Origin: an uncultured virus (IMG/VR IMGVR_UViG_2061766007_000542)
Lineage: Duplodnaviria > Heunggongvirae > Uroviricota > Caudoviricetes
Reading direction: 5' to 3' (one strand)
Virus record (IMG/VR): IMGVR_UViG_2061766007_000542
DNA: 37,088 nucleotides
In this document: positions 1-37,088 of the stretch, piece by piece
How the letters are laid out: the number at the start of each line of letters is the position of its first letter
Position numbering within the stretch: the stretch's first letter is position 1
The notes under the pieces: model-generated
What the model saw: only the letters and a program-made list of their open reading frames with translations
Told to the model about the DNA's origin: nothing
Databases searched by the model: none
Translations under genes and position numbers: made by a program

Positions 1-1
1 A

Positions 2-109
2 AAGCTGAAAGAGAAATTAGAACAGATAAAATATATCAGATTTGAAGATTCTGAAAAAGAGTATAACAAATGATTATGAGAATTAGACCAACTTATTATG
101 AATAGATAA
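2..109 (+). CDS. C-terminal part of hypothetical protein (5' truncated)
   Basis: Frame 2 is open: KLKEKLEQIKY...LIMNR*. Confidence 0.5.
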
Positions 110-137
110 TAAAACTTTTATATTATAACAAATAACA

Positions 138-527
138 ATGGAGAAACTTATGAAGTTATTAAACGAGTATCAAAAAGAATTAAATGACAAAGAGGAAAAT
201 AAAGGAAATTATGAAATTTTTGAACGAAAGTTAAACGGTGATAGCATTCGTATGAATGATTTATCCGATCCGTATGAATGACTTAATATGTACTGATGAT
301 ATGCAAAAGCACGGTTAATCTCAAAACAATTCTGATTCATCAAACGGCTTGTAGATAATGATAAGATAAACATAAATGAAGGATGGGATCATTATGAAAA
401 GACAAATTTATATTGTAATGCAGATTTCTTCCAACTTCAAAAACACTATTCATATTATGAAAGTTTACTAATGCTACTTGCAATATCAGAAAATCCTATT
501 GAAGATTTAATTAGTTATTTAAAATAA
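138..527 (+). CDS. Hypothetical phage protein (129 aa)
   Basis: MEKLMKLLNEY...SKQFGFIKWLVDNDKI...; open with TGA=Gly, and its stop abuts the next ATG. Confidence 0.75.
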
Positions 528-869
528 ATGGACGACTACAACAGAAACTGCTTGATGCTTAACGACAGCATATATATATTAGTCAATGAATTCGTTCTGA
601 AATACTACGAAGAAGATGCTCATGTTATACGAATTGATTGTGATAACGATTGTTTACATTACAACCTCCAAGTCAATGATGATTATTGGAATATTGATGA
701 GATATACACGGCTTTACGATACAACATACCAAAGGAGATACTGTTTGAGTATAAAGAAGAATCTTTCGCTCATGCACTAAGAAAGGAAACATTTATAAAT
801 CTAAAGAACTTTTACTTAATTAAACAATCAGAATGGAAGAAAAACGAATCCCAACAGATGAAGAATTAG
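528..869 (+). CDS. Hypothetical phage protein (113 aa)
   Basis: Present in the ORF track; starts immediately after the upstream stop codon. Confidence 0.75.
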   Translation: MDDYNRNCLMLNDSIYILVNEFVLKYYEEDAHVIRIDCDNDCLHYNLQVNDDYWNIDEIYTALRYNIPKEILFEYKEESFAHALRKETFINLKNFYLIKQSEWKKNESQQMKN

Positions 870-1009
870 ACCTAATTCAAAGTCATTTATCTGCTGAAGA
901 TTTTCAAACATTCTTGAAAGATTTAGAAGAAAAGAATTGAGTAAAGATTAAAGATACTTTTTCAGACGTTCCTGTAACAGACCCAAGAGGTTATTCTTTA
1001 GATGAATAA
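833..1009 (+). CDS. Small acidic protein (58 aa), paralogue of 2808-2984
   Basis: MEEKWIPTDEELDLIQSHLSAEDFQTFLKDLEEKNG...PVTDPRGYSLDE. Confidence 0.75.
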
Positions 1010-1015
1010 AACAAA

Positions 1016-1291
1016 ATGAAAAAGAAAAGAGTCGAGTATGATGTACACCACTTAGTCAATCGTTGTAATTGATGAAGCAACGATCCCTCTAATCTTATCA
1101 CAATGAAAAGAAATAAACATGAGGCTCGACATATTCTCTTTGAAAATCTTTGATTTAAAGAAGCTCTAATTAAATTGTTTTTAATGGGAGAAAAATGCTT
1201 AAAAGACTGAACGATTAAAAGAGATTTACGGTATTGTTTACAAAATATCGATTATAAACCACAGACATTTAAACTTGAAAAAGAAAAATAA
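1016..1291 (+). CDS. HNH-family endonuclease-like protein (91 aa)
   Basis: DVHHLVNRCNGGSNDPSNLITMKRNKHEAWH motif; the GG is encoded by TGATGA and the W by CGA. Confidence 0.75.
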
Positions 1292-1340
1292 TTTGTTATA
1301 AGAACAATGCCCTATAGATTATAGAGGTAAATGTTTTGAG

Positions 1341-1380
1341 AAAAGAGAGGCTCTCTAAAATTAAAAACCTCTCTTTTTCT
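1341..1380 (+). terminator. Intrinsic terminator-like hairpin
   Basis: AAAAGAGAGG...CCTCTCTTTT stem followed by a T-rich tract. Confidence 0.55.
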
Positions 1381-1433
1381 ATTATCTGATTTTTCTCTCT
1401 TTTATCTTTTTTTATACAAAAAAAAACAAAATT

Positions 1434-1468
1434 CTCTTGATTTTTATAAAAAAATGATTATATTATAG
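1434..1468 (+). promoter_or_regulatory. Sigma70-type early promoter (copy 1 of 3)
   Basis: CTCTTGATTTT-N-TGATTATATTATAG, with the same motif and spacing at 32743-32777 (+) and 22644-22678 (-). Confidence 0.7.
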
Positions 1469-1523
1469 TCGTAATTGAAGTAGAGAGCAATTACAAAACA
1501 TTTATCTCTTAATGTATAGACAG

Positions 1524-1913: not shown

Positions 1914-2215
1914 ATGTTAGAAATCAAAAAAGCAACGGAATTTGATAAAGACCCGAGAACAGTCAGAAGCAATAAGAAAAAGTATATTGCTTTAAAATAT
2001 ACGGATTCTATCACCAAATATTGNNNNNNNNNNCAAGAGAACAAAGAAACATAGCGAAGAAAAAAGAAACGAATATAGCGAAAGAATGGTATAATTGCAA
2101 AGATAGAATAACACAACAAAGAGAATATTTGAACGGACTAATAAGAAAAGCAGAATACCTTGAGATTCAAAACAAAGCATTGATAGAGTATGTAAAGAAA
2201 TTGAAAAAATGATAG
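1914..2215 (+). CDS. Hypothetical basic/coiled-coil protein spanning the N gap
   Basis: MLEIKKATEFDKDPRTVRSN...[gap]...EYVKKLKKG*; the frame across the gap is uncertain. Confidence 0.45.
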
Positions 2216-3226: not shown

Positions 3227-3502
3227 ATGAAACCATATATCATCCCTGAATGAACATTCAGACATCATCATTGAGAATTCTCAAAGGGGAGTAATAAATA
3301 CCGTTATCAAATAGAAACAAACGAACACGGAGAACATAGTATAAGTCTATTCAGACAAAGAGAACAAAAGCGAGATTTTATCTGAAACATCCAATACAAC
3401 TATAACAACAGGGAGAAACGGAGAGTATTCCAACAAAGGATCAATGGAGATGTTGTAACTGTAAAAGAAAATAAAAACAATTTATCCATTATTATATTAT
3501 AA
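3227..3502 (+). CDS. Hypothetical protein (91 aa)
   Basis: Open with TGA=Gly; TAATG overlap with the next gene. Confidence 0.55.
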
Positions 3503-4020
3503 TGAGAACAACAAAGACAAAAAAGAAAAAAAGAACAACCAGTAAAAGTACAAGGCAAAAAATAATAGATCAATTTGATGTAATCTTCTCAAGATACATC
3601 AGGATGAGGGACAGTGATGATAAAGGAATAGTTACATGTCCACTTTGCTGAAAAAAACTCCCACGAAAAAAAGCACAGAATATGCACTTCATAAAAAGAG
3701 GAGTACTCAAATACAGATTTGATGAAGATAACTGCCACGCAGGATGTAAAAGATGTAATGTAATGCTTGATTGAAACTACATCGAATACACAAGGCGAAT
3801 GCAAAGAAAATACGGAATAAAAAAAGTAGATGAGATGATATACGATAAACAACCGTACGACATCTCAACTCCTGAACTTGAAGACATGATGTGCAGATAC
3901 AGGGGGAAATTAGATAACTATGCTTATAAATTTATTCTTAACATAAATGATAATGGCAAGACCAAAAGAAAAAGTAACAGTGATGACAAAGGTATGAAAA
4001 AGAACATACAAGATAGATAA
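3502..4020 (+). CDS. ninG: NinG/Rap-family recombination endonuclease
   Basis: FSRYIRMRD..CPLCG..MHFIKRG..RFDEDNCHAGCKRCN motif. Confidence 0.85.
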
Positions 4021-4412: not shown

Positions 4413-4661
4413 ATGGTAAACCTCGCATCCATTAAAGAAGTGGAGAATCACAGAAACAAAATCTGTATAGAAAAAATCTGTGAATTTTTGAGGCAACAGG
4501 AAGACCAAGAAAGGAGCATAAAAGACATCTCTCTCTATGAGTACCAAACACGAGTATCATCACAAATAAAAACATTAAACGAGAGTGTGGAGTACGAGAG
4601 ATACAGGAGAAAATACAGAGAGATAAAAAAAAGTGCCAATTTATCCAAAAAAGATGTATAA
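4413..4661 (+). CDS. Hypothetical protein (82 aa)
   Basis: MVNLASIKEVENHRNKICIEKICEFL...; lies between terS and terL. Confidence 0.6.
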   Translation: MVNLASIKEVENHRNKICIEKICEFLRQQEDQERSIKDISLYEYQTRVSSQIKTLNESVEYERYRRKYREIKKSANLSKKDV

Positions 4662-4662
4662 C
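4642..4662 (+). promoter_or_regulatory. Putative late promoter motif TATCCAAAAAAG..TATA (copy before terL)
   Basis: Matches the copies at 8896-8916 and 22785-22803. Confidence 0.4.
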
Positions 4663-6012
4663 ATGCAAGAAGTAAAACAGATCAGGCTTTCTGAATTACA
4701 AATGAAAGCACTGAAAGTCCTCCTTGATGGAGAGCATACTTCGGTAGGCTTTGGATGAGGAGCAGGATGAGGGAAAACATACCTCTGAACGATCCGATTA
4801 TGGCTTATGTGTGTGAAATATCCGTGAGTGAGATATGCAATGGTCAGAGATACGATCAAGAACGTAAAAGCAACAACGGTAAAATCAATGATGAAATTCT
4901 TTTCTGATTACAACATCAGTGAAGAATACAGAGGAATACTTAATCCAACTAACTCATTGATAAAATTCAAGAACGGCTCAGAGATTGTCTTAGTGGAGTG
5001 ATGCTACTATCCATCCGATCCATTATACAACAGATTCTGATCGCTTGAATTGACAGGAGCATTCATAGAGGAATCTGCTGAATGTCCGATTGAATGAATC
5101 GAGATCATCCAAACGAGAGTAGGAAGACAAAAGAACGAGGAATACAACATCCTCTGAAAAGTCCTTGAAACATTTAATCCGAATCCGTGACACGTATACG
5201 AGAGATACTTTCTCTGAAAACATAAAGACCAAGACAAGTCCATATTCATCAAAGCATTAGTAAACGATAACCCTTTCATTTGAGAGCAGTACATCGCAAA
5301 CCTCGAAAGAGCAAATGAACAAACAAAGAAAAGACTTCTCTACTGAGAGTGGGACTTCTCAGATAATGTACGAGCATTATTCAAAGTAAGTGAAATCCAC
5401 GATCTGAAAACCAACCAAAGAGAGTGAGATAAATACTGTTTGATCTGCGATGTGGCAAGATACTGAAAGGACACGGCGAGAATATCCGTACGAAAAGGGA
5501 ACACTTGGATCAGAGTAGAAACCTACGCCAAGAGCTCAACTGAAGATCTGAAAGAGGCGATAACCTACCTCGTAAGACAATACGGAATAGATCGGTCGGA
5601 TGTCGTGATAGATGCTGATGGAGTAGGATGATGAGTAGTCGATGGACTTCCATACTGCAGAGCATTCATCAATAATTCAAAACCAGTGTCAATCGCATCA
5701 AAGCAAAACTACCACAACCTCAAATCACAATGTGCATTCTATCTCCAAGAGAAAGTACAAAAAAAGGAAATCGCTATAAGATGGGAGCACTTGGATAGAG
5801 AAAAGGATCGAGAAACATTGGAGCAAGAAATGATGAATCTCTACATTGATCCGAAGTCTATCGATAGCAAAACAAGGATAGAATCAAAGGATATGATGAA
5901 AGAGAGAATCGGAAGAAGTCCTGACCTCCTCGATACTTTAATCATGAGGATGTATCTCTATCTCTTAGGGGAAGAAGATACAAAACAAAGCATTTATTCT
6001 CAAGAAAGGTAA
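4663..6012 (+). CDS. terL: Terminase large subunit (449 aa)
   Basis: Walker A GFGGGAGGGKT, Walker B GAFIEES, FNPNPG, and nuclease motifs CDVARYGKD, DADGVGGG and GRSPDLLD. Confidence 0.95.
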
Positions 6013-6014: not shown

Positions 6015-7865
6015 ATGATAAAACTTACTGATGAATTAAGACAGAAAATCCTAAGGGAGTATGAGCATTGATACAATGCCAACAGGAGTAAAAACTCTCA
6101 ATTTGATACACAGAAAGACCTACGATCTGCAAAAACAAATGAGGAGAAGTTAAAGAGTCAGATTTTTTGGTCTGTTATGAGAACGATCCAAGCAACCTGC
6201 ATCATCAATGAGCCTGACACGGTACGAGAAGATGAAGATGTACTCTTTCAGCAAGAGGCAAGAAACTTCTCAGACATGTATAAATCAGACTACACGAAAA
6301 ACAACCGAGATTTTGATAAATACATCGGACTCGAGGACATCTGCAAGTACTGAAAATTCGTTCAATTATTTACAGGATTTGATGAAGATAATCTCTGTCC
6401 AACGGTAGAAAGAATTGATCCAAGATTCGTGTATCCTTACAACGATGGAACAAAACTCGTGAAAGATTATCCCTTCTTTTGATTTGATAGAATCATCACG
6501 ATAGACCAACTCAAAGAACTCGATGTGAAAAACAAATTCAAAGACCGAGTATGCTGTCATTACGATGAGTTCATCGACTCACAGAAAACAACGGACAGTT
6601 TCCATAGGAACATCAACACCTTCTATGATAAAGTTTCATGAATGGTAACAATCCACTACCACTACACGTACATCAAGGGAGAACTCTATCTCGTGTTAAT
6701 GTTAGGAGAATACATCCTCGACATTTACGATGTACCTGAAACTAAATGGAGATGAAAAAACAGGATGCCGATAGCAGTAACAGGATTCGCTTATGAGGGA
6801 TCAGACCGATGGGGAGTCTCACTCGTAGATATTATCGAGGACTCACACAGAACAGAGGAACTAATGCTCAACTTATTTAAAATCAAAGCAACTCGTGAGG
6901 CAACAGGAGGAAACATCTTCATTGATGAGGAGGCATTCCTAAAAAACAAGGAGAGTTTTAAAAACCAAAGTCTCAAGAACAGATGGTATCCAATCAAGAT
7001 GAGAGATATGACAAAATCCATCAATTCAATGGTATATGAACTCCCACAACAAGCAGTAGCAGGGGACATCTACAACATGCTCAATATGATAAAAAACAAA
7101 GCAATGGCTGAATCTTTCGCAAGTGCAGTAGGACAAGGACTCGGACTTTCTGAAAACTCCAATCCAAATACAGCAACTCAAAGTAAGATACAGAAAATCA
7201 ATGCTAACATGATGACAACCCTTCAGAATCAAATCCTTTCTTATTGATCCGAAGACTTCGCCGTACTCTACAGAATGTACATGCTGTACTATTGGAGAAA
7301 TAGCAAGAAGAAAGTAATCAGAAGAGTACTCGGAGGACTTAGTGGGACATACAAGAAACTCAGTAAAAAAGACATTGCTGGAGAATTCAATATCATTATT
7401 GAAGACCCAATCCAAAGGTCAATCAAAATGGAGGACAAAAAGAAAGCACTAACGGAACAATACAATATGTTAGTAAACGATCCGAACACTCCACCATTTA
7501 TCCTCAATAATATCAGAAAATCAATCTGTTATTATAACGGACTCGATGAAAACGAGATCGATGCAGTAAATCTCTTTGATCCTGAGGAATACCAATGTAA
7601 GCAGGATGTGATCCTATTGAATAACAATATTCCAATCTACATCCCACCTACTGCAAATCCTCACATGAGACTACGATACTATAACAAAGCAGAGGAAACA
7701 GAGGCAAAATTCCAAGCGATAGAATCACTCAAATACATGATCCAACAGTGAATGGGAAATAATCCACAGAATATGGCTGAACAACCAAAAGTAGAACAAC
7801 CACTAACAGAAAAAGAACAGGAGCAAGAACTCATCACTAACGGATTACAATCAATCACTCAATAA
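6015..7865 (+). CDS. Portal protein (616 aa)
   Basis: Follows terL; size fits; WGVSLVDIIED and NTATQSKI segments resemble P22/N4-like portals. Confidence 0.8.
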
Positions 7866-9517: not shown

Positions 9518-10486
9518 ATGATTAAAACTACTAACATTGAGGCGACTTCAAACGATCATTTTTTTGAAACCCTCCTCAGAAAATCTTTCCTTGAAAACGG
9601 AGAGCCATCAACAATCTTTATGAAATTAGGAGAAGCTCCAATCTCTCAAAGAGGTTATGACTCAGTAACGTGGGCAAGATTAAACCCAATGAAAAGAACA
9701 TTAGCACAGACTACACTTACAGAAGGAGTTACACCTTCAGGAACAGATAACACTGTAAGTACAATCTCTGCTACTCCAGTAGAACTTGGAGATTTTACAA
9801 ATTTCTCTGACAAATTGACAATGGAAACATTATTTGATGTTATCCCTGCACAATGAAGAGAATTGTATAACAATGCAAAGAGAATCATCGATGAAAAAAT
9901 CCAAGATGTACTCGCATCAGATGATACAGTACCTGTAATTTATGCTGGATCTGCTACGGCAAGAGATGAATTAATATCAAGTGACACTTTGGATCTTGAT
10001 TTGATTATGAACGGTACGACTTTCTTAGCATCTCAAGGAACAACGACAGAAAGATTCAAGGTCGTAGTTCATCCAAATGTATTCTTAAACTTCGCTCAAA
10101 GTTCATCAACGAATACATGGCTCAATAAAACGATTTATGAATCTTTCAAAGGAATTGAAGATGGATACGTAACATCAATCTTAAACTTTGACATCTACCA
10201 ATCAGCAAATGTAAAACCATTCACAGTAACTGCTACAGGAGGAAACTTCAATGTTTATCCAACTTATATCTTCAGAAAAGGAGCATACGGAACAACTACG
10301 CTCGAAAACTTGAGAACAATCTACAAAGGATTTGGATCAGGAGGAACTGAAGACCCATTGGATCAAAGAGCATCAATCGGATGGAAAGCATACTTCGGAT
10401 GTGCAGTATTAAATCCTTTCTTCTTAGTAAGATTAGAAACGAGAGCCACTACAGATTATCAATGGCAAGAAACAATCGGAGACTAA
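9518..10486 (+). CDS. Major capsid protein, N4-gp56-like family (322 aa)
   Basis: LTEGVTP, VVVHPNV and GSGGTEDPLDQRASIGWKAYF motifs; a single in-frame TGA (Gly) at 9854. Confidence 0.9.
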
Positions 10487-10557: not shown

Positions 10558-11316
10558 ATGGGAACAGTACAAAACAGAATCGACAACCGAGCAACAGCAG
10601 AAATAAGAGGCACAGGTCAAATCAATTATAATGTAGTTCTCCAATGGTACAACAAAGGACTGCTTATTTTTCAAAAACAAGTTTTAGAATATCTCGCTAA
10701 CACTTATCAGATCACAAGCGTAACGATTGATACACAAACAGGGAAATCAGACTATGCACTCCCAACAGACATCAACATGGGAATCAGTTCAGATTTTTAT
10801 TCTATTGCTCAATTAAGAGTAGCATACAAAGAAGATAAAGACTGATACCCTATCTACAGGAGATGTGAACAAATCAACATCGCAGACTATAACATCAGAT
10901 CAACAGGAAGACAAAAAGGACAGCCTTTCATTTTTTCAAGGATCAGCAAAAGACAGCCAAAATTCTCGTTCATCTCAGAGAGAAATACCACAACAAACGA
11001 AACAGAAAGCAAAATCAGAATCTATCCAACACCAACAGAAGACATCACAGCAGGGATTCATCTCACGTTTAATTACATCCAACAACCAGTAACACTCAAC
11101 ACTAACGAAGATAAACTCCTACTCCCTCGATATTTTCTCGATGTTATCGATGATTATTTGACTTATAGATTGATAAGAGCAGAGAATCCTGAAATGGCAC
11201 AGACTCACTTTCAAATATTCAATGAAACACTTCACAATAACATCTACTGATTAAACAGAGATCAAAGACCAGTGGAGGAAGAATTCTGAAACTTCAGAAA
11301 TTTATATAGAAACTAA
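10558..11316 (+). CDS. Head-tail adaptor / tail tubular protein A-like (252 aa)
   Basis: Position after the capsid gene; DYALPTD..F and IRIYPTP motifs; L.LPWYF.DVI.DY. Confidence 0.65.
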
Positions 11317-11323: not shown

Positions 11324-13012
11324 ATGGAGAGATTCACAAAAGACAGAATATCAAACGTTTCATGGAGGGATTGCTTAAGTCAAGATCCTTATTATTGATT
11401 AGAAAACAGTTTCCAATATTCAGAAAACATCAACGTAGATGATGAACTACACGGAATCAAACTCTCACAAAAAGTACTAACAGCCAATGTATGTGCTAAC
11501 TGCCAACTTATCAGTGCAGGAGATCACGTCTTCGCACTTGATAAACAAGGAACTCAAAATGTGAAATATTTCAATAAAGATAACCGAACAAGTCCAACAA
11601 CTACAAGCCGAACAGTACCATCAGGATCAGCAGTAAAAACCGTGAAAGGAACAATCTTTCAAGATTATCTCCGATTTTGATTCAATCTCACTGTCCCAAA
11701 CATCCAAGCATGAGCATTCAAAAGGGGAAGAGTTACAGGAGCAGGTAATGCAGACATCATCATCCCACAGGATCACATAGAAAGTACGGATGAAAGTATC
11801 TCAACTTACAACCAAGCATACTGAGAAAGCCATTTGATGCCGTGAAACATTACAAGTATTCTCAATTATAACAATACAAGACTCGTAGTAGGAGCAGGAA
11901 GAGAACTCCGAGTATACTATCCTGAACTTGATATGACAGGAACAACTCAAAACTGACATACAGTAGCATTTGGAGAAACAGGATGGAAGAAAGTACAACA
12001 ATTTGAGGCAGGATGTAATATCATCGCTCTTACTTGTGACTTTCAATTCTTAAGAGTACGAGTTCAAGATGAGGGATGGAATACCAAGATGTTTTATTAT
12101 CAAGGGAATAACGATTTGAGAAACACTTTCGTATACAACCTCGTAGACTTAACGAATACCAAAGTCCTCAATGTTTATCCAATCAACTGAGTGGACTACT
12201 TCACAGCATCACTTGATGGAACAGATGGATACATAACCCTAAACAAAATCACAGGGACTCAATCCGTGCAAATCTTCAAGCAAAGAGCAGGACTAAGCCA
12301 ATACGATCCATCAAATAAAAATGGATACTTCGTATGACCAACAGCAATCGATAGCTCGTACTTAGATGGAGCGTTTTATATCGCCGACTATTACGGAGTG
12401 TTCAAATTTCTCTACGATCCACAAGGAATCGATAAAGGATACTTGAAATGGAAATTCAGGAGCAACCATACATCCAACACTCAACCAACAGGACTCACAA
12501 TCTGTCAAAACTTTCTTTATGTTTCTGACCGAGAGGGAATCAAAAGGATGAGATTATATGATACAGGAGTCGATGGATACCAAAGTAAAGGAATCCTTGT
12601 ATCAAGAGAAATGGAGGGAAACTACGGATGATGTATCTGTAAAATTTTAGATGAAGTAAGATGCCACTTTGAATTCAATCACTTCACAAATAGCAGTAGT
12701 ACAGGGACAATCGATGTTTATGTATCTCCAAACAATCTCCGAGAATTATACGATCCTGAAGTAAACAGCAACGGATGGATACAAGTAATGCACATTGATA
12801 ACGATAGCAAGGGGACAAGATACGAAAAAACAAACACTCTAAACAGTTTAGATGATTGAAAACCTGCATTTGAAACAGACCGAGAAACGATAACCTACTG
12901 CGTCGTAATCAAGAGTGGAGGGACAAGCGTACAACGAACTCCAGCAGTAAGAGAAATTCAAATGACCTACCATACAAAAGGAAAAACAAACAACGTTTAT
13001 AACATAAATTAA
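11324..13012 (+). CDS. Tail nozzle / tubular protein B-like (562 aa)
   Basis: Position and size fit; beta-rich composition; N-terminal FQYSENINV. Confidence 0.6.
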
Positions 13013-13017: not shown

Positions 13018-13788
13018 ATGTTTGATATACCAAGCCCTGATGAACTTGATCCAAATTTGAAATACGATTACAACCTCGTATGAAAACAATTCTCAAACGA
13101 GCAGATGCAATCACAATCAGCAGACACCTACGATCAATTTCTCTGACTCAGAGATACGCTCATCGATAGCAAGAAGAAATATCCGTGAAAAAGATGAGCA
13201 ACATTGATCGTAGGAGATAAAGAGAGGAGCGTAGAAATCAAATATAAAAACAGATTCAAAGCCTCTTTTGATGACTTCACAGCCTGTAATGTGGATAGTG
13301 AATGACCCTACGTATCATACGATACAACATACGGAAATCTTGGAGCAATCATCAATGAAGATTGAAGATATAGAATAGAACATAAATTCACAATCAAACC
13401 ACAGGCGAACACGGAAAGAATTATTGCTTATTGTGATTTTTTCGCAATCAACGATGACTGAACATATCCTACGAAATGACAACCAATCGCCGTGTATGAC
13501 TTGGTAGGGAAATTCTCAAAAACCTTTCAAGGATCAATCAGTGGAACTTGTCACGGAGAGGGAGGATGATCAGTAACAGGAACATGCAGTGTAAAAGTTG
13601 AATTCAAACTCTGAGATATTCTTCAGAAAATTACAGCATTATGATTCATTGAAAGAGATATGAGAAGATGAGATAAAATGGAATTCAAAGCAGTAGATGA
13701 AAACGACCAACTCCTCGAACTCATTCCAAACTCAAACTTTTTCTCAGTGCAACATTTAGATCTTAACAAAACAGAAAATGGCAACTAA
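13018..13788 (+). CDS. Putative tail/structural protein (256 aa)
   Basis: Open only with TGA=Gly; lies within the structural operon. Confidence 0.6.
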
Positions 13789-16540
13789 TCAACCAATCAA
13801 TAACATCTCACAACCACGAAACAGCCAAAATACTGCTAAATTTAACAATACTTATCAAGTAGGAGCAAACACTACGAATAACCTCTATAAACCAACCACA
13901 AAAGCACAACCAACCGTAGCAAAAACAAATACTACGAAAACAACAAACACTCCATGATTGACAAACAACATCGCTCAACCACGAGATAGCAAGAATACAG
14001 CAAAGTACAATAACACCTACCAAGTAGGAGCAAATACAACCAACAATCTCTATAAACCACGAGAACAAGGAGGAACAACAGCAACACCAAAAAAAGAAAC
14101 TGTTTCAAACACGAAAACTACTACAGGAGGACAAAGTACTCAACTCGGATACATCAATGAACTACAAAACCAAATCAAACAACTTCAAGAGGAAAACAAA
14201 AACTTAAACATCCTCTGTAAACCTGATGGGACACCACTTCCACCTGAACAGCAACCACCTGAAGTACAAAAAGAACTCAAGAAAACACCTAAAAAAGTAA
14301 ACAATCCACAGCCTCAACCACAAGTAGAACAACCACAAGAACAAGAGCCAGTGGATGAATTCGCTCCTGACTTTTATAAACAAGAACAACCACAAGAGGA
14401 AGTACAAGAAGAACAGCCACAAGAAGAAAACACCGAAAAAGAGGCAACGATCGATACAGAAAACAGAGAGGGAGTAATCTATGGAAGAGCAAGTGGGGAT
14501 GAGAGTACAAGAATAGAAACTAACAGCGACCAATACTCAGCAACTGATACATCTGTAAGAGAAAGACAAAACTCTCTCAATTCATTACTTGGTATGAGTG
14601 CAGAGAACATCGCAATCAGTATCAATAGCTGATATACTCCGTTCGGAGAACAAGGGATGAGAGATCTCCAACAATACGCACCTGAAAAATACAACTTGAT
14701 CCAACAGGAACTCAAGAAACTACAAACGATGGAAAATGTGAACTCTATCGCAAGTGGAGGAAGTATCAACATTACAAGTCAGATTCAAAACACTACCGAT
14801 ACCATCAATAACAGTATCGATGACCGAGCGAGAAGAAATTCTGATCCTCAAAGTTATGACAATACTCTAAGCAACCTAACAGAAAAACTCGCAAGTAGCC
14901 AAACGGCACAAAGTGCAACCCAAGAAATGCTCAATATTAATAAAGACATCGCAGAGATTCAGGCAAAGATGGAGAATCTACCAAACGAGGCAAAAAAGGC
15001 ATTTAAAGGAGATGTCCCTGATTATATCTACCAAGCGTACATCTCAAATAAACAGCAAGAATACCAAGCACAACTCAACAAACTCCAAAGCAGATACCAA
15101 TCAGCAAGTGATCTCTATAAAACGGAACTCGCTAATAAACAATGGGAGGCAGAGATGGAGATGAAAGAGCAACAAATGATGATCCAACAAAATCAACGAG
15201 CATTGGAACAAGAATTCAAGATGTCCCAACAAAACCGAGAGAACAACTTTAAAACAAATCAATTTAATTGGAATGTCTGACAGCAAAACCGAGAAAACAA
15301 CTTCAAAACAAATCAATTCAATCGGCAAGTAGGACAGCAAGATCGAGAGAATCAATACAAACTCAAACAATATGATCTCGATGTTAGCCAATTAAAACTC
15401 CAAAGCATGAAAACAGATAGCAGTGGTAGAGTTTTCCAAATCAATTCAGATGGAACTTACACTTATCTAAGTGATAGCACAGCAAAAGTTATCATGGATC
15501 AGCAAGTCGATGCAGGATTACAAGCATTAATGAAGAAATGTCCTCAATGAGCAACTTGATGGCAATGTGAAGCAGTAACGGATGAGTTCAATAGAAGTAC
15601 CTACGGACAAGAAATGCTCCCAAGAGATAAAGACTGAAACCCAAGTAAAAATCTTTGAAGGACATACACTACAGCAGAAGAAAAGAAATCCTATGTGAAT
15701 ACTCCCTACCTTATGAAATGAGCAACAGCAGTATTCAATTACAAGAAAAGTGATGGGGTTTCTGATGCCGCAGTAACATATGGACATACAGCCTTAATCG
15801 TTGGAATCGATGAACAAAACGGAACAGTGACCTACCTCGATGGAAACAGAAAATGAGATGAAGTAGTAAGATATAACACAATGCCAATTGAGGACTTCTA
15901 TAAAAAAACAGGACTTCAAGGATTCCGATACCCACCATACGATAAAAATCTTGATACAATCCAAACAAATGATGAAATAGCACAATCAAATTCTGTGTTA
16001 TTTGACAACTCAATGGCTTCACTTTATGGGAAATACAACAGTTGAAAAGGGCTTACAAAGGAAGACCGAAATACCGTAGACTCTGTATGAATATCAAGAA
16101 AAGAATTTATGCAACAAGCAACTAATTATAAAACACATCTTGAAGAACAAATGACACCACAAGTACAAGAGATGATCAATAATTTACAAGAAATTAAAAG
16201 CGAAATGTGAAGGATTGACTTCATCAATGCAGGAGTAGGAGAACAAGGTACACGATGAACAGAATGAGCATACCACAGAAGTCTTATCAATCAATTTATC
16301 GCAAGCAAATCCCTACAAAATCTTATTGATATGAAATCACAGGGAGCAACATTCGGAGCATTGTCTGATTCAGAATTGAATTTCATTTCAAACTCTGCAA
16401 CAAACCTCAATATGAATCTAAGTTATGGAGATTTTATGAAAGTGATTGATAAAACGTTAAATATCCTCGAAAAAGGGATAAAAACAGTAAAAACATCAAA
16501 ATGATCAGAAAATAACCAAAGAAAGAATCCACGAGCATAA
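13778..16540 (+). CDS. Internal virion/ejection protein with CHAP-like amidase domain (920 aa)
   Basis: Gln-rich coiled coils; GWQCEAVTD (about 15555) and YGHTALIVGID (about 15780) supply the Cys/His pair. Confidence 0.7.
13802..14058 (+). repeat. Duplicated ~31-aa unit NNI(S/A)QPW(N/D)S(Q/K)NTAK(F/Y)NNTYQVGANTTNNLYKP
   Basis: Two copies 162 nt apart. Confidence 0.85.
15227..15360 (+). repeat. 54-nt tandem coding repeat (QQNWENNFKTNQFNW.VG) x2.5
   Basis: TGG(15269) aligns with CGG(15323), and TGA(15278) aligns with GGA(15332). Confidence 0.9.
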
Positions 16541-26648: not shown

Positions 26649-27320
26649 ATGAAAATAAAAGAATGCTATGTGTGACATTTCAAAGTACGACCTAAAAAAT
26701 GATGGACTCCATGAGAGGATACAATAGCATATTATAAATTCAATGGTAACTTAAATGATAGTAGTGGAAATAACAGAAATCTCTCATGATGAACATTCAC
26801 ATACTGAGAACTCCAAACAGGAGCAAAATATATCCAAACATCATCAGGACAGTATACGAATAACTATACATCAATGCCTTTCAATACTAACTCATACACG
26901 ATAAACATCCGAGCCTGTGCAGATGCAACTACTACATCATGAATGTTGGTAGACTTCCATACAAACAAGTCTAACTTCCCAAGATTCGCAACAGCATCAA
27001 CAAATAAATTCACATTCACAACAAACCCAACTAACATCACTACAACAATCAATGAGTGGCACAATTATGTCTGTGTTTGTAAAAACGAAACGGCTTACTG
27101 TTATATTGATGGAGTACAAAAAACCACAAAAGCAATCAACTCACACAATGCTAATCTGAATTATTTTAGATTGAATACGATAGGATATGCTGATGCTTCA
27201 CTAACCAAATACACATGGAAAGGAAAGATGTCAGAATTGATCCTTGAATCAAAAGATCGAACAGCACAGGAAATAGTAGACTACTACAACAAAACAAAAT
27301 CAGATTACGGTATTTCTTAA
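26649..27320 (+). CDS. LamG/concanavalin-A-like lectin domain protein (223 aa)
   Basis: IAYYKFNGNLNDSSGNNRNL, EWHNYV, YIDG, WKGKMSEL. Confidence 0.8.
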
Positions 27321-28280: not shown

Positions 28281-28940
28281 ATGACAATATTTATGGGATC
28301 GGATGAATTGAAAGAATTCTATCTGTGAAAAAAATGATGGGAACCTTGAGAGAATACAATCGCTTATTATCCATTCAAATGAGATATGAATAATAGAGCA
28401 GGTACAGGTACAGCGACAGGTGGTACAATAGGTGCAAATTATCTAACTTGTAATGCAGATACTATTACAGTACCATTCACTGAAACAAATAGTTCAAATT
28501 CTCCTTTCACTGCTAATATTTGGATAAAAATAACAAGACGACCATCATACAATCCAAGAATATATAATGATAGATGAGGGAAAACTTGTTTAATAGTTGA
28601 ACATTACTATAGCACATGAGTATTAGCATTAAAACGAGACAGGGATGCTCAAAGACCTGCACCTTCATACACAACAGCTATATCAGGTAATCAATGGACA
28701 AATATTATCCTTACATATTCATGAACATGAAACACTTTCTATATTTACAATAATGGACAAAAATTTACATATCCAAACGGTATAGATAGATTGACAAGTG
28801 ATAATAAGATACAGTTTGGTAGTGCTGGTTCGGATTTACTTTATGCACAAATATCTGAATTTATCTTTGAAAAAGTACAACGAACAGATGATCAAGCTAT
28901 AGAGTATTTTAACCAAACAAAATCAGATTACTGAATCTAA
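28281..28940 (+). CDS. LamG/ConA-like protein, paralogue of 26649-27320 (219 aa)
   Basis: KKGWEPGENTIAYYPF...ISEFIFEK..W...TKSDYGI. Confidence 0.75.
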
Positions 28941-31417: not shown

Positions 31418-32308
31418 ATGCTAAAAAAATTTATTGAACGAATGAGAATCAACAGAAATTTTTCAGAAATAACTGTAAAAAATTATACAAGAACACTTTC
31501 CACATTTAATGAATTTCTCAACAAGGCAACCTTCTGAAACATCTCCATAGATACTCCTGAAAAAATCCAACTCTACCATATCAACAACTTCATTTTGATA
31601 GAAAGAGCAAAGGGACAAACCGTAGCAACAACCAATAACAAACTCGCAGGAATCAAAATGTTTATAAGATACTGCATCGTAGCAGGACTCGAAGTAATCA
31701 ATCCACAATCAATCATCTTCGCAAGAGAAAACGAAATCAAGATCGAGGCACTAACCAAAGCAGAGGCAACAAAATTAATGGAATACTTCAAGCAAGTACC
31801 GTGTGAAACAGAAAGGGAAGGACTAATAAAAATCAGAAACTTATTGATCTGTTCGTTTTTTCTCTACACAGGACTCAGAGTCAGTGAACTCTCACATCTT
31901 CAGATCGAAGAAGTAAAGGATGACTTCCAAATCATCGGTAAAGGATGAAAGAGAAGATACGTCCATCTCTCAACAGAAACTAAAGCAATTTTTGATCTGT
32001 ATATCACAATGAGAAAAGACCAAGAAAAACGGTTATTCATCTCTCACTCCAACAACTGCAACGGTAGGCTTTCCAATGTCTCAATAGAGAGAATCATCAA
32101 GAGAGGAGGAGAACAAGCAGGAATTATAGGAAAAGTATTCCCACATAAACTGAGGCACACGTTCGCAACGGAACTCATGAAAAACGATGTGGATCTGATA
32201 AAAGTGCAAAGGCTACTCGGACATAAGAACATCCAAACAACAGAGAGATACATCACGGTATATAACCAAGACTTAAAGGATGCTGTCTGATTGATTAACT
32301 TTTGATAA
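31418..32308 (+). CDS. XerC/D-like tyrosine recombinase/integrase (296 aa)
   Basis: SEITVKNY N-terminal domain; YTGLRVSEL, GKGGKRR, PHKLRHTFAT, LLGHKNIQTTERY. Confidence 0.92.
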
Positions 32309-32450
32309 CAAAACATAACAAAACCGAACAAAATCATTTTTGATACGTTTTGATAACAAAACCGGACAAAACATAACAAACAATAACAAAACATAACAAA
32401 ATGGAACAAAATGCAACAAAACATAACAAAATCAATTTTGATACGTTTTG
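32303..32450 (+). repeat. Iteron-like array: 11 degenerate 10-mers (consensus ACATAACAAA) and two TTTTGATACGTTTTG; probable replication origin
   Basis: Directly visible tandem repeats, followed by an AT-rich TATATATACATATATAT tract near 32519-32538. Confidence 0.7.
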
Positions 32451-34118: not shown

Positions 34119-34119
34119 G

Positions 34120-34308: not shown

Positions 34309-34309
34309 G

Positions 34310-34948
34310 ATGACAAATATCTACCAAAAAATCAATAAAGTAAAACAAGCCATAGCAAAGGCAGGACTCAAAAAGAGTGGGAAGAATGCATTCGCAAAGT
34401 TTGAATATTACGAACTGAGCGACTTCCTCCCCACCATTATAGAGGAATGTGATAAGATCGGATTATTCAATCATATCACATTCAAAGAAAACGAGGCAGA
34501 ACTTGAGATCATCAACTGTGAGAATCCTGAAGAAAAAATCACATACGTCAGTCCAATCACAGAACTTGAACTCAAAGGATGCAACAAAATACAGGCACTC
34601 GGATGAGTACAAACATACAGCAGGAGATACTTATACATCACTGCATACGACATCTGTGAAAATGATTCATTTGATGCAGTTACAGGAGATGGAGATAAGA
34701 ATCAAGAAAAGAAAACAGAAAACAAAATCAAACCTGAAGAAAGCAAAAAGAAACTCGAAGAATTCAAAAAGAAATGTGAAACAGTGAATCTCGATGACAA
34801 AACAGAAACAGAAAAACTACTCGAAGAATGAAGACAACTTCACAAACAACTCTTAGAAGAGGACAAAAAAGTCCTCACAGAATATTGTGTGTGAATAAAA
34901 AATGCTTTAGAAGTACTTAAAACGAATGGAAATCAAAGTAATGCTTAA
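34310..34948 (+). CDS. erf: ERF-family single-strand annealing protein (212 aa)
   Basis: KKSGKNAFAKFEYYELSDFLP...IQALGGVQTYSRRYLY..DSFD. Confidence 0.88.
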
Positions 34949-35315
34949 AATCAATGAGGAGTTCAAAGAGAAAGGACTCCTCCTCTCCAAAGAGGACTTA
35001 TTTGATCGACTCAGGCTCAGAGATGATATGAGAACAAAATCAAACGAACTCAAGCAAGAAGTAACGATCTGAAAATTAGAACTCGATAAGGAGAAAGCCT
35101 GTAAGGTTATAGAATACAAGGCAACAATAGATGACAAAGGGAAATGACTCACAGAAAAAACAATCGAGTCATTGATAAAAAAGGACTTCTATGAGAAAGA
35201 GATAGAACTCCTCACAAAGAAAGCAACTGCAGATCTCCTACAAGAGAGAGCAGAGAGCATCATAGACTTTGTAAACATCGTAAAGATGGAGATCAAAGCA
35301 AAAATAGAGTTATAG
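34926..35315 (+). CDS. Helical protein, possibly a UvsY-like recombination mediator (129 aa)
   Basis: Helical bundle with GKGLTEKTIESLI; adjacent to erf. Confidence 0.5.
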
Positions 35316-35344
35316 GTCAGACTTTTATTCTTTTATAAAAATAC

Positions 35345-35749
35345 ATGGGAGAAAAAACACTAACCATCATTAAACTATCAGTAACAGCATTATTAATCAT
35401 CGGAATTTTATCTTTGACTTTCGTGGTAGGACAAAACAGAATCAGCGAAAAAGATCAAAGAGCAATCAACAGCCTCGAGGAAGTATTAAAGATAAAACAA
35501 CAAAAGCAAAACTGCCTCGATAATCTCACGGCATTACAAACAGAGGAATACCTCAAATGAGTGTGAGATTACTGCAAAACAGATGATGAGAGAATCAAAG
35601 AACTCAAAAGTATCATCGACTCAACCATCAATGGATTTGAATACGAAAACATTGATAGATTGATCCAAGAAAAGAAAGATGGACAAATCATCAACAATAC
35701 AGGGATGACAGCCATCGAAAAATTAGAGGGTTTATTAGCGAGTGAGTAA
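35345..35749 (+). CDS. Membrane-anchored protein (134 aa; short product of a frameshift gene)
   Basis: N-terminal TM helix; ends ...LEGLLASE*. Confidence 0.7.
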
Positions 35750-36222
35750 ACACTCAGACAAAAAATCTCTCCAATGAGAAAAAAATTGAGGAGAAACACG
35801 AGGTAGTATCGTCCACAAAAAAAGAAACAGAAGAAAAAAAATCTGAAGTCGAACAACAAACCATCAAGAAAAAAGAATACGAAGAAAATGATTTGAGAAA
35901 CGAGATGATACAGTATGCATACAACATCGGATGACTTGACTTGGTACTGATGATGGAATGTGAAAATTCCACACGGAACATGTACAGACAGAGCGAAGTG
36001 GTAAAGAACTGAAGAAGAGAGCCTTCCTACTGACTCTGCATGATTGACAGGGACTTTCATCCTGAAATTATAGATGATCCACGTTTTCGGTCAGATCGAA
36101 AACGACAGATAGAAACCTGCAACAGACTCTATACATGAGGAACAAAATTCTACTGACCATCAAGAATCGTAAAAGGACAAAGATGTTCAGAATATGTGAA
36201 ACAGAGATTCACACTGACCTAA
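35728..36222 (+). CDS. Lytic transglycosylase-like domain in the -1 frame (probable frameshift extension of 35345)
   Basis: MMECENSTWN...SYGLCMI motif. The frame has no start codon between the TAG at 35656 and about 35893, and G GGT TTA lies at 35728-35734. Confidence 0.65.
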
Positions 36223-36432
36223 GCAAGTCGCTATAAACTGCAGTGCTTATATAACAAAGGCGAGAGCCTGTCCCAAACAAGACATAAAACTGTTTCCTAT
36301 TTGCTGTAGGAGGTTATGGATACCACAGCACAAAGATAGCAAAGCAAAAAAGAACAAAAGTAAAACTTCCATTCATTGATCATAATAAAGTAAAAATCAG
36401 ATAAAACATCCATCCATAACCTGTGCTATCTT
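36216..36432 (+). ncRNA. Second composite structured RNA element (two pseudoknot repeats, GNRA hairpin, long-range helices)
   Basis: Pseudoknots at 36216-36241 and 36269-36295; AGGC-GAGA-GCCT hairpin; helices 36311-36321/36412-36422 and 36333-36341/36424-36432. Confidence 0.55.
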
Positions 36433-36456
36433 TTAATTGATAAAAAAACAAAAAAC

Positions 36457-36699
36457 ATGCCAAGAGAAATAACACCCTGAGAATTAGAGTTCATCAATGA
36501 GCCATGAATCATTCACAAACTCTTTGATAAGTTCAGAAACTTCCTCATCTTTGTATTCACAAGAGAATGAGAATCACTGGATGTGGATACCAAGAGATAC
36601 AAAGAAAAAGGATTCTCTGATGTAGACCACCTGAGATCCTGTGGCAAGAGAAATCAATCAAAATTCTTCAAGGATTATGAATACACTAAAAGAAAATAA
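36457..36699 (+). CDS. Hypothetical protein (80 aa)
   Basis: Open with TGA=Gly. Confidence 0.6.
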
Positions 36700-36721
36700 T
36701 TTTTATCCATAAACCGTACCA

Positions 36722-36820
36722 ATGAGAACAGGCGACAAGATAGTCTTCGCAATAGCGATTATCGTGATGATGACAATCATCGCAAGTTTTATCTGCTTAT
36801 GTTTAGAATGAGTGAAATAG
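36722..36820 (+). CDS. Small TM peptide (32 aa)
   Basis: MRTGDKIVFAIAIIVMMTIIASFICLCLEGVK. Confidence 0.5.
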
Positions 36821-36990
36821 CAACAGAATGCCCTGAGCCAAATAGGAACAGACACGAAAAAACAACCGTGAGAATAGGGAACACGGAAATATCAATTCCA
36901 AGATACCTCATCAATATGATAAAAGAACTCCCTGATACTTTACTAACACTTTTAAGAGATAACAGACAAGAGAGAAGATGAAGAAGATAA
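36808..36990 (+). CDS. Hypothetical protein (60 aa)
   Basis: Track ORF extended through TGA. Confidence 0.5.
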
Positions 36991-37088
36991 CAACAGAGGA
37001 AGAATACGAGGAGAGTTGTAAGAGATTCTATGAATTACAACTTCAAATCAACAGATGTGATGAGAACATCGCAAAGCAAAAGGCAAGT
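36978..37088 (+). CDS. N-terminal part of coiled-coil protein (3' truncated)
   Basis: MKKITTEEEYEESCKRFYELQLQINRCDENIAKQKAS, open to the window end. Confidence 0.5.
   Translation, partial: MKKITTEEEYEESCKRFYELQLQINRCDENIAKQKAS

What the first reader, a model, noticed from the sequence alone, without database searches (positions are those of the whole stretch)
1..37088. Phage with a triply reassigned code (TGA=Gly, CGA/CGG=Trp): probable Absconditabacterales (SR1/CPR) virus
Seen in sequence: TGA occupies invariant Gly positions (TerL Walker A GFGGGAGGGKT, HELGH, GKGGKRR). CGA occupies invariant Trp positions (FKKWF, FKNWFGDW, HEAWH). In the 54-nt tandem repeat, TGG/CGG and TGA/GGA align codon for codon, and the LamG paralogues end DY-GGT-I versus DY-TGA-I. 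Established: UGA=Gly is used by Gracilibacteria and Absconditabacteria, and CGA/CGG=Trp has been reported for Absconditabacterales. Inference: the host is an Absconditabacterales CPR bacterium. The recoding runs through early and late genes and no suppressor tRNA is present, so the phage appears to match the host code rather than use recoding as a lysis switch.
Basis: partly seen in the sequence, partly recalled or inferred. Interest (0 to 1): 0.85.

Follow-up and report, generated by a model that had tools for sequence, protein, structure and literature searches.

The report
Rumen phage with three-codon altered code
This is a nearly complete tailed phage from cattle gut whose genes only make sense if TGA is read as glycine and CGA/CGG as tryptophan, the code predicted for Absconditabacteria (SR1) bacteria, so it most likely infects them and public databases translate it wrongly.

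Summary
The window is a roughly 37-kb Pagevirus/SU10-like podophage, with genes on the + strand.

**TGA = Gly.**
- Reading TGA as sense opens frames of up to 2,027 codons. Reading TAG or TAA as sense does not.
- TGA sits on Gly columns of distant homologues (+50 bits).

**CGA = Trp, not Arg.**
- It pairs with TGG in every relative and essentially never with AGA.
- It sits on W or aromatic columns (Arg -36 bits).
- It raises Pfam scores.

**CGG = Trp.** The data are fewer but point the same way: its main partners are CGA and TGG, and it never pairs with AGA.

**Other checks.**
- All other codons read as standard.
- Recoding runs through both early and late genes.
- No tRNA was found in the window or in 19 related loci.

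**Host.** Absconditabacterales is inferred from the code match. A spacer or an integration site would prove it, and neither was found.

**Novelty.** Code-25 SR1 phages (Liu 2023) and phages that mirror a host sense-codon change (AGG=Met, Shulgina & Eddy 2021) are already published. The CGA/CGG=Trp part in a phage was not found in print. This is a new member of a known kind. The scan had noted CGA=Trp before, but only on SR1 bacterial contigs.

The parts
1..37088 (+). Near-complete phage genome, all called genes on the + strand, read with TGA=Gly, CGA/CGG=Trp, stops TAA/TAG
   Evidence: The 36 genes cover 81.6% of the window. Relatives sit on contigs of 35-44 kb. G001 is 40,199 bp with a CheckV estimate of 96%.
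1016..1291 (+). Small HNH-like ORF with HEA[CGA]H
   Evidence: No family hit at the threshold used.
2024..2033 (.). Run of 10 N (gap or masked bases)
3502..4020 (+). NinG/HNH junction endonuclease (2 TGA, 2 CGA)
   Evidence: Pfam NinG 70.4 bits; phrog_5034 2.2e-25. Both CGA sites are TGG in L004.
4633..6012 (+). Large terminase (16 TGA, 4 CGA, 1 CGG)
   Evidence: Pfam Terminase_3/6N; phrog_2 2e-27. In 120 homologue clusters the CGA and TGG sites show only W or R.
6015..7865 (+). Portal protein (7 TGA, 6 CGA)
   Evidence: SU10_portal scores 26.5 bits with CGR=W, below the 30-bit cut-off. 222 distant homologues were found. 5 of 6 CGA sites are TGG in relatives.
9518..10486 (+). Major capsid protein; nearly free of reassigned codons (1 TGA, 0 CGR)
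   Evidence: phrog_1357 1.5e-39; 26% identity to the Pagevirus head protein; codon bias p=7e-4
10558..11316 (+). Head-tail adaptor (SU10 type)
   Evidence: Pfam SU10_adaptor 48.9 bits, rising to 51.6 with CGR=W
11324..13012 (+). Virion or tail protein of unknown family (10 TGA, 9 CGA)
   Evidence: 6 of 9 CGA sites are TGG in G001 and L001. No family hit.
13778..16540 (+). 920-aa protein with a weak CHAP-like stretch and an internal repeat (15 TGA, 12 CGA, 1 CGG)
   Evidence: CHAP 17.3 bits, below cut-off; repeat seen
15230..15391 (+). 54-nt in-frame tandem repeat in which TGG/CGG and TGA/GGA occupy the same codon slots
16563..22574 (+). 2,003-aa polyvalent protein with three ART-PolyVal domains and an HExxH motif (88 TGA, 14 CGA, 1 CGG)
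   Evidence: ART-PolyVal scores 130.4 bits (TGA=X), 114.2 (W), 155.2 (G) and 163.3 (G plus CGR=W). Column tests.
26649..27320 (+). LamG-like protein, paralogue 1
   Evidence: Laminin_G_3 scores 42.4 bits (CGR=X), 45.3 (R) and 48.7 (W). Its end is DY-GGT-I.
28281..28940 (+). LamG-like protein, paralogue 2
   Evidence: Laminin_G_3 scores 31.4 bits (TGA=X), 27.3 (W) and 35.9 (G). Its end is DY-TGA-I.
31418..32308 (+). Tyrosine integrase / Xer-like recombinase (4 TGA, 1 CGA, 1 CGG)
   Evidence: Phage_integrase scores 111.1 bits (CGR=R), 112.1 (X) and 115.5 (W). Among 116 homologues the CGA site is R 70 / W 35 and the CGG site is Y 52, Q 31, W 16, R 10.
32353..32431 (.). 10-bp tandem repeat (7.9 copies) just after the integrase gene; possibly iterons or an attachment region (not tested)
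34310..34948 (+). Erf-type single-strand annealing protein (3 TGA)
   Evidence: Pfam ERF 40.5 bits; phrog_155 1.2e-26

Best explanation
The window is a near-complete genome of a tailed podophage. Its head genes are of the Pagevirus/SU10 type, it carries a 2,003-aa polyvalent ART protein, and it holds an integrase and an Erf recombinase. The genes are written in a code with three departures from the standard one: UGA = Gly and CGA and CGG = Trp. Arg is left to AGA, AGG and CGY, and stops to UAA and UAG. The phage encodes no tRNA or release factor. Its mRNAs must therefore be decoded by a host that already reads these codons this way. That means a host with a UGA-reading tRNA-Gly, no RF2, and Trp-accepting tRNAs for CGA/CGG. 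This combination has been predicted only for Absconditabacteria (SR1, GTDB order Absconditabacterales). The most likely host is thus a rumen Absconditabacterales bacterium, and the code acts as a lock on host range: in a standard-code cell 34 of 36 genes would terminate early. The three codon meanings, the lack of tRNAs and the genome-wide spread are shown. The host identity and the tRNA mechanism are inferred.
For: **TGA = Gly.**
- ART-PolyVal scores 130.4 bits with TGA=X, 155.2 with G and 114.2 with W. TerL loses its hit under table 4.
- Over 37 columns of about 99 standard-like distant homologues, G scores +50.1 bits and the next residue -39.
- The main partners of TGA in relatives are GGA 539, GGT 61 and GGG 59 of 1,334 pairs.

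**CGA = Trp.**
- Of 79 sites, 41 align to a relative. 22 of those have TGG in at least one relative and none has AGR or CGY. None of the 172 aligned AGA sites meets CGA or CGG.
- Across 14 further loci, CGA pairs with TGG 151, CGA 48 and CGG 23 times of 353.
- On distant homologues W is the best residue (+1.1 bits) and R scores -35.7.
- With CGR=W rather than X, Pfam scores rise for ART-PolyVal (+7.8), LamG (+6.3), integrase (+3.4), adaptor (+3.2) and portal (+3.0).
- In 120 TerL clusters the window's CGA sites and its TGG sites both show only W or R. AGR sites show R 1,889 and K 308.

**CGG = Trp.**
- Its partners are CGA 23, TGG 18 and AGA 0 of 59 pairs.
- 4 of the 6 aligned sites have TGG in a relative.
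- The integrase CGG column is Y 52, Q 31, W 16, R 10, F 5.
- In the tandem repeat, CGG lines up with TGG.

**No phage-borne decoding genes.** ARAGORN finds no tRNA in the window or in 19 related loci, including the whole 40-kb G001.

**Genome-wide use.** Early and late genes both carry the codons.

**Host.**
- The code is as predicted for Absconditabacteria (passages of PMC8629427; PMC13092985).
- The GC content of about 0.35 lies within the reported 0.26-0.38.
- The phage occurs in bovine gut metagenomes of at least 5 studies besides the possible source.
- 58 papers in the library hold both 'Absconditabacteria' and 'rumen' (listing only).
- A distant polyvalent homologue is labelled Candidatus Absconditicoccaceae (P0059).
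Against: **Host not linked directly.**
- Two scans of species genomes found no relative.
- No relative lies on a contig longer than 46 kb, so no prophage junction is seen.
- No spacer search was possible.

**CGG rests on few sites.**
- There are 15 in the window and 6 align to a relative.
- The single polyvalent column favoured E or R.
- The TerL CGG site is variable: H 60, P 17, R 13.

**Some results cut the other way.**
- 9 of 353 CGA pairs in the more distant relatives are with AGA.
- On distant portal homologues CGA columns favour F or Y rather than W. The window's own TGG columns do the same.
- With CGR=W, Terminase_3 (-1.0 bit) and NinG (-1.4) drop slightly, and the weak CHAP hit is lost.

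**Other limits.**
- Some Gracilibacteria are predicted to read CGG as Trp, so a BD1-5 host is not excluded on CGG alone.
- The window is not closed and has a 10-N gap, so a missing tRNA gene cannot be ruled out for this genome alone.
Confidence: 0.8

Rival explanations
1. The phage uses plain table 25: UGA = Gly, with CGA/CGG still Arg. The Trp signal would be an artefact of a few motifs.
For: Table 25 alone already opens all frames. NinG and Terminase_3 score marginally better with R than with W. 9 of 353 CGA pairs are with AGA.
Against: Arg at CGA scores -35.7 bits on distant homologues, against +1.1 for Trp. CGA pairs with TGG in 151 of 353 pairs. None of the 172 aligned AGA sites meets CGA or CGG. 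Without CGR, Trp would make up only 0.6% of residues.
Confidence: 0.02
2. The host is not Absconditabacterales. It would be a Gracilibacteria/BD1-5 bacterium or an undescribed lineage with the same three reassignments.
For: No direct host link was obtained. Some Gracilibacteria are predicted to read CGG as Trp. Rumen CPR diversity is poorly sampled.
Against: In the passages read, CGA=Trp together with CGG=Trp and UGA=Gly is reported only for Absconditabacteria. The only taxon label among the homologues is Absconditicoccaceae.
Confidence: 0.13
3. Recoding is a phage-driven timing device: late genes are recoded and a phage-encoded suppressor is expressed late, in a host that uses the standard code or table 4.
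For: Such phages are described (cited in PMC10746230, passages). Public databases translate this lineage with table 4.
Against: No tRNA is found in the window or in 19 related loci. TGA occurs in 14 of 15 early genes and 20 of 21 late genes, and CGR in 13 of 15 and 16 of 21. TGA=Trp lowers every informative Pfam score. A sense-codon change cannot be supplied by a suppressor alone while the host's Arg tRNA competes.
Confidence: 0.03
4. CGA/CGG are read ambiguously (a Trp/Arg mixture) or are poorly decoded, rather than cleanly reassigned.
For: The major capsid gene avoids the reassigned codons (TGA 1 of 23 Gly codons, CGR 0 of 4 Trp codons). The same holds in G001 (2 of 22, 0 of 4). The CGR share of Trp codons differs between relatives: 61% here and 26% in G001.
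Against: Invariant Trp positions of TerL, portal and ART-PolyVal are written with CGA, which ambiguous decoding would make costly. CGR is the majority Trp codon here (94 of 155).
Confidence: 0.1

Closest known systems
Absconditabacteria (SR1) genetic code: UGA=Gly plus CGA/CGG=Trp (Shulgina & Eddy 2021, eLife, PMC8629427; passages read)
   Same: The same three reassignments. GC is low, AGA is the main Arg codon, and CGY is kept for Arg. The CGR share of Trp codons (61%) resembles the most advanced host assembly they describe (CGA 30 + CGG 24 vs UGG 35 per 10,000).
   Different: That report concerns bacterial genomes and rests on Pfam columns and tRNA genes. Here the carrier is a phage with no tRNA genes. 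CGA is used at 78 per 10,000 codons over all genes, against less than 37 in aligned Pfam domains of the hosts.
Code-25 phages predicted to infect Absconditabacteria (Liu, Jaffe, Chen, Bor, Banfield 2023, mBio, PMC10746230; abstract and passages read)
   Same: The phages are dense with in-frame TGA, have a far higher coding density under table 25 than table 11, and share the host's code.
   Different: Their hosts were assigned by CRISPR spacers, mostly from human-associated samples. The text holds no occurrence of 'CGA', 'arginine' or 'Codetta', so the Trp reassignment is not addressed. This phage is from bovine gut and has no spacer link.
Baboon-gut phage assemblies predicted to read AGG as Met like their Bacilli hosts (Shulgina & Eddy 2021, passage read)
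   Same: A phage mirrors a host sense-codon reassignment without carrying the tRNA.
   Different: The codon, amino acid and host phylum differ. There is one change there and three here.
Stop-codon-recoded phages with suppressor tRNAs and release factors (works cited as refs 20-23 in PMC10746230; not read here)
   Same: A stop codon is read as sense inside phage genes.
   Different: Those phages differ from their hosts' code, carry the decoding machinery, and often recode late genes only. None of this is seen here.
Bacillus phage Page and relatives (Pagevirus) and SU10-type podophages
   Same: The capsid is 26% identical over 90% of its length. The gene order TerL-portal-capsid matches, both have a very large internal protein, and there are SU10 adaptor and portal Pfam matches.
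   Different: They use the standard code and infect Bacillus or E. coli. The portal match is below Pfam's cut-off, and the early genes are unrelated.

Membership tests
Users of translation table 25 (UGA=Gly) | Many in-frame TGA codons; frames open only when TGA is sense | tested here: met
   There are 237 in-frame TGA in 36 genes. The longest + strand frame is 2,027 codons, against 347 with TAG or TAA as sense.
Users of translation table 25 (UGA=Gly) | TGA aligns to Gly, not Trp, columns of homologues | tested here: met
   G scores +50.1 bits over 37 columns. Pfam scores rise with G and fall with W. The partners of TGA are GGN.
Users of translation table 25 (UGA=Gly) | tRNA-Gly(UCA) present and RF2 absent in the decoding cell | not testable with these tools
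   The phage has no tRNA and no host genome could be reached.
Absconditabacteria code (adds CGA/CGG=Trp) | CGA at Trp positions, not Arg | tested here: met
Absconditabacteria code (adds CGA/CGG=Trp) | CGG at Trp positions, not Arg | tested here: met
   The partners of CGG are CGA 23, TGG 18 and AGA 0 of 59. 4 of 6 aligned sites have TGG in a relative. The integrase CGG column is aromatic. The sample is small, and one distant column was inconclusive.
Absconditabacteria code (adds CGA/CGG=Trp) | Arg carried by AGA/AGG/CGY; low GC | tested here: met
   The counts are AGA 292, AGG 64, CGT 12 and CGC 1. GC is 0.29-0.38.
Absconditabacteria code (adds CGA/CGG=Trp) | tRNA(UCG)/tRNA(CCG) with Trp identity elements | not testable with these tools
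   No tRNA gene is in the phage and no host genome is held.
Phages of Absconditabacteria (as in Liu et al. 2023) | CRISPR spacer match from an Absconditabacteria genome | not testable with these tools
   No spacer collection or SR1 genome was reachable.
Phages of Absconditabacteria (as in Liu et al. 2023) | Much higher coding density in table 25 than in table 11 | tested here: met
   On the + strand, bases in frames of 100 aa or more total 37,614 with TGA as sense, against 13,245 under table 11.
Recoded phages using recoding as a lytic switch | Phage-encoded suppressor tRNA or release factor | tested here: not met
   No tRNA is found in the window or in 19 related loci. No RF family appears among the Pfam or PHROG hits.
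Recoded phages using recoding as a lytic switch | Recoded codons confined to late genes | tested here: not met
   TGA occurs in 14 of 15 early and 20 of 21 late genes.
SU10/Pagevirus-type podophage head module | Adaptor, portal and capsid of that type | tested here: inconclusive
   The adaptor scores 51.6 bits, above the 27-bit cut-off. The portal scores 26.5, below the 30-bit cut-off. The capsid is 26% identical to that of Pagevirus. No structure was compared.

The most novel reading that the evidence does not exclude
In this rumen phage lineage the reassigned codons are under active selection as well as being tolerated. CGA has overtaken UGG as the main Trp codon in this genome (94 of 155 Trp codons). 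It reaches 8 of 8 conserved TerL Trp positions in one relative and 26% of Trp codons in another. The most highly expressed gene (capsid) avoids both TGA and CGR. One reading is that the CGR share tracks the stage of reassignment of each phage's particular SR1 host, so phage codon usage would fingerprint the host sub-lineage. On that reading, moving Trp from UGG to CGA also escapes misreading of UGG by the UGA-reading tRNA-Gly. The lineage would then give independent, phage-side evidence for a sense-codon reassignment that has so far only been predicted from host genomes. It would also give a natural system for testing the code as a host-range barrier.
Probability: 0.2. Interest if true: 0.75.

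Novelty: new member of a known kind. Interest (0 to 1): 0.5.

Why it matters
- **Independent evidence for the code.** CGA/CGG=Trp in Absconditabacteria is so far a computational prediction from host genomes. A large phage lineage that writes invariant Trp positions with CGA, with no tRNA of its own, is independent evidence that cells with this decoding exist in the rumen.
- **Wrong translations in public databases.** All 120 TerL clusters of the lineage are stored with W at Gly positions (table-4 style), and 108 of 120 have R at conserved Trp positions. Table 25 alone would still mistranslate 94 Trp codons in this genome, which degrades annotation, clustering and structure prediction.
- **A host-prediction signal.** The code gives a signal for assigning hosts to phages of uncultured CPR bacteria, and a case for studying an altered code as a barrier to host switching.

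Tried and rejected
- **Whole genome.** None is held for the window.
- **Species-genome scans.** Scans with the capsid alignment and with the Absconditicoccaceae-labelled polyvalent group found no relative. No SR1 genome handle was obtained, so no tRNA or spacer test could be run.
- **Handles for three GenBank-style metagenome contigs.** These are not held.
- **Metagenome scan for an integrated copy.** It returned 19 loci, all on contigs of 42.6 kb or less, with no host flank.
- **Integrase search for organism labels.** No organism label was returned, and all contigs are 46 kb or less.
- **Terminal repeats.** None was found.
- **Table 4 (TGA=Trp).** Rejected by Pfam scores.
- **Other reassignments.** Every other codon with 4 or more informative columns gave its standard meaning or a near tie: ACC S/T, GTA I/V, TGG F/W.
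- **Earlier scan notes by place and by sequence.** Nothing was found.

Full report
**What the window is.** Under table 11 the 37,088-base window gives only short frames, the longest being 347 codons. With TGA read as sense, the + strand fills with abutting genes of up to 2,027 codons. Reading TAG or TAA as sense does nothing of the kind. A set of 36 genes covers 81.6% of the window, holds no in-frame TAA or TAG, and ends in TAA 29 times and TAG 7 times.

Pfam and PHROGs name the following genes:
- a NinG/HNH endonuclease
- the large terminase
- a portal
- the major head protein
- an SU10-type adaptor
- a 2,003-aa polyvalent protein with three ART-PolyVal domains
- two LamG-like paralogues
- a tyrosine integrase
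- an Erf recombinase

The nearest named phages are Bacillus megaterium podophages of the genus Pagevirus, whose capsid is 26% identical. GC is about 0.35. There is a 10-N gap at 2024-2033 and no terminal repeat. Relatives sit on contigs of 35-44 kb, and one of them (G001, 40,199 bp) is rated 96% complete. The window is therefore close to a whole genome.

Every codon-level detail was found as described: the TerL Walker A with two TGA, HEA[CGA]H in a small HNH ORF, the 54-nt repeat in which TGG/CGG and TGA/GGA share codon slots, and the LamG ends DY-GGT-I and DY-TGA-I.

Two examples were overstated.
- The x in HEL[TGA]H is not a Gly column. It is F 43, L 21, D 12 of 96 homologues.
- The integrase GKG[TGA]KRR position is Gly only within the lineage (W 67 + G 37 of 116).

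**TGA is glycine.**
- ART-PolyVal scores 130.4 bits with TGA masked, 155.2 with Gly and 114.2 with Trp.
- TerL loses its Pfam hit under table 4. NinG, LamG, adaptor, Erf and integrase all prefer Gly.
- On 37 columns from about 99 distant homologues that look standard-coded, Gly scores +50.1 bits and the runner-up -39.
- In codon alignments with relatives, TGA pairs with GGA 539, GGT 61 and GGG 59 times of 1,334. It pairs with TGG only 8 times among TGG's 456 pairs.

**CGA is tryptophan.** I masked TGA, CGA and CGG as X before every alignment, so the alignments could not lean on a reading.

*Relatives at 60-93% nucleotide or protein identity.*
- Of the 79 CGA sites, 41 align to at least one of five relatives. 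22 of those have TGG there and none has AGA, AGG or CGY.
- None of the 172 aligned AGA sites meets CGA or CGG.
- In 14 further loci, CGA pairs with TGG 151, CGA 48, CGG 23, TTT/TTC 31, TAT 13 and AGA 9 times of 353.
- The 9 AGA pairs are the only contrary counts.
- These loci are related to each other, so the counts are not independent events.

*Distant homologues.*
- On 13 columns Trp is the best residue (+1.1 bits), Tyr scores -2.1 and Arg -35.7.
- In the polyvalent protein alone, Trp scores +8.3 over 7 columns.
- On the portal alone, the CGA columns favour Phe/Tyr, exactly as the window's own TGG columns do.

*Pfam scores.* With CGR=W rather than masked, five scores rise and two fall slightly, and the sub-threshold CHAP hit disappears.

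| Pfam family | Change in bits |
|---|---|
| ART-PolyVal | +7.8 |
| LamG | +6.3 |
| Phage_integrase | +3.4 |
| SU10_adaptor | +3.2 |
| SU10_portal | +3.0 |
| Terminase_6N | +1.6 |
| Terminase_3 | -1.0 |
| NinG | -1.4 |

*Lineage-wide columns.*
- In 120 TerL clusters, the window's four CGA sites and four TGG sites carry almost only W or R (273 R and 652 W in all).
- AGR sites carry R 1,889 and K 308, with no W among the eight commonest residues.
- The R at Trp columns is CGR translated by a standard-Arg table.

**CGG.** Only 15 sites exist in the window, and 6 align to relatives.
- 4 of the 6 aligned sites have TGG in some relative and none has an Arg codon.
- Over the 14 further loci, the partners of CGG are CGA 23, TGG 18, CAT 6 and AGA 0 of 59.
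- The integrase CGG column is Y 52, Q 31, W 16, R 10, F 5.
- In the tandem repeat, CGG replaces TGG.
- Against this, the one polyvalent column favoured E/R and the TerL site is variable.

I take CGG=Trp as well supported but on a thinner base than CGA. No other codon departs from the standard meaning.

**Who decodes it.** ARAGORN finds no tRNA in the window, in the whole of G001, or in 18 other related loci. The reassigned codons are in both gene blocks:

| Gene block | Genes with TGA | Genes with CGR | TGA per 10,000 codons | CGA per 10,000 codons |
|---|---|---|---|---|
| Late | 20 of 21 | 16 of 21 | 244 | 79 |
| Early | 14 of 15 | 13 of 15 | 187 | 71 |

This does not fit recoding used as a lytic switch with phage-borne suppressors. 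The phage must rely on a host that reads the three codons this way.

- In passages I read, Shulgina & Eddy (PMC8629427) predict exactly this code for Absconditabacteria. They predict CGG=Trp in only some Gracilibacteria.

The host call is therefore an inference from the code match. Four weaker facts support it:
- The GC content fits.
- The phage recurs in bovine gut metagenomes of several studies.
- Absconditabacteria are often reported from rumen (58 papers hold both terms; listing only).
- One distant polyvalent homologue is labelled Candidatus Absconditicoccaceae.

I could not reach any SR1 genome, spacer set or prophage junction.

**What is known and what is new.**
- Liu et al. 2023 (PMC10746230; abstract and passages) report that most predicted Absconditabacteria phages use table 25. 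Their text has no mention of CGA, arginine or Codetta.
- Shulgina & Eddy also report two baboon-gut phage assemblies that read AGG as Met like their hosts, without the tRNA.
- Six library searches found no paper describing CGA/CGG=Trp in a phage.
- Supplementary tables were not seen.

The principle is thus known, and this is a new member: an SR1-type phage shown to carry the two sense-codon changes as well. Earlier notes of this scan record CGA=Trp on SR1 bacterial contigs and one TGA=Gly phage head block, but no phage with CGA=Trp.

**Side observations.**
- CGR makes up 94 of 155 Trp codons here, against 44 of 169 in G001.
- One TerL relative has R at all eight Trp columns.
- The capsid gene avoids reassigned codons: TGA is 1 of 23 Gly codons against 237 of 649 genome-wide (p=7e-4), and CGR is 0 of 4 Trp codons. 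G001 shows the same pattern.
- The polyvalent gene is enriched in TGA (88 of 165 Gly codons).
- All 120 TerL clusters in the public collection are translated in table-4 style.

Noticed in passing
window 9518-10486: The major capsid gene almost avoids the reassigned codons. TGA is 1 of 23 Gly codons, against 36.5% genome-wide (p=7e-4), and CGR is 0 of 4 Trp codons. The capsid of relative G001 does the same (TGA 2 of 22, CGR 0 of 4). The polyvalent gene is enriched instead (88 of 165). This may mean the reassigned codons are decoded less efficiently or less accurately.
   Followed up: partly
P0121-P0240 (TerL homologues): All 120 public TerL clusters of this lineage carry W at conserved Gly columns (a table-4-style translation), and 108 of 120 carry R at conserved Trp columns. 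One (P0122) has R at all eight. The lineage is stored mistranslated in two ways.
   Followed up: yes
window vs G001 (L002/L005/L012/L013): The share of Trp codons written as CGA/CGG differs strongly between relatives: 94 of 155 in the window and 44 of 169 in G001 long frames.
   Followed up: partly
window 32353-32431, 32583-32623, 33374-33439: A 10-bp unit (ATAACAAAAC) is repeated 7.9 times directly after the integrase gene, followed by A-rich short repeats in a gene-poor stretch. These may be iterons or an attachment or origin region.
   Followed up: no
window 833-1009 and 2799-2984: Two small paralogous ORFs share the pattern W.PT.EEL..LQ.HLS.E.F...LKD.EE..G..I...PV.DP.GYSLD, and each writes its N-terminal Trp with CGA. 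They flank a region of short ORFs with no family hits.
   Followed up: no
window 2024-2033: A run of 10 N sits inside the early region. It is either a scaffold gap or masked bases.
   Followed up: no
P0003, P0011, P0025, P0044, P0047, P0064: Polyvalent-protein homologues at 37-46% identity lie on contigs of 245-393 kb, far larger than this phage. They may be prophages or genes in host chromosomes of TGA-recoded bacteria. The contigs could not be fetched.
   Followed up: no
window 29838-30689: A 283-aa protein has Cys and His residues spaced as in a cysteine peptidase and sits where an endolysin would be expected. It has no family hit and only 1 TGA among 18 Gly codons.
   Followed up: no
window 27644-28198: An Asn/Gln-rich 184-aa protein has an N-terminal hydrophobic segment and lies between the two LamG genes. 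It gives a weak match to a PHROG of unknown function and may be a membrane or lysis protein.
   Followed up: no
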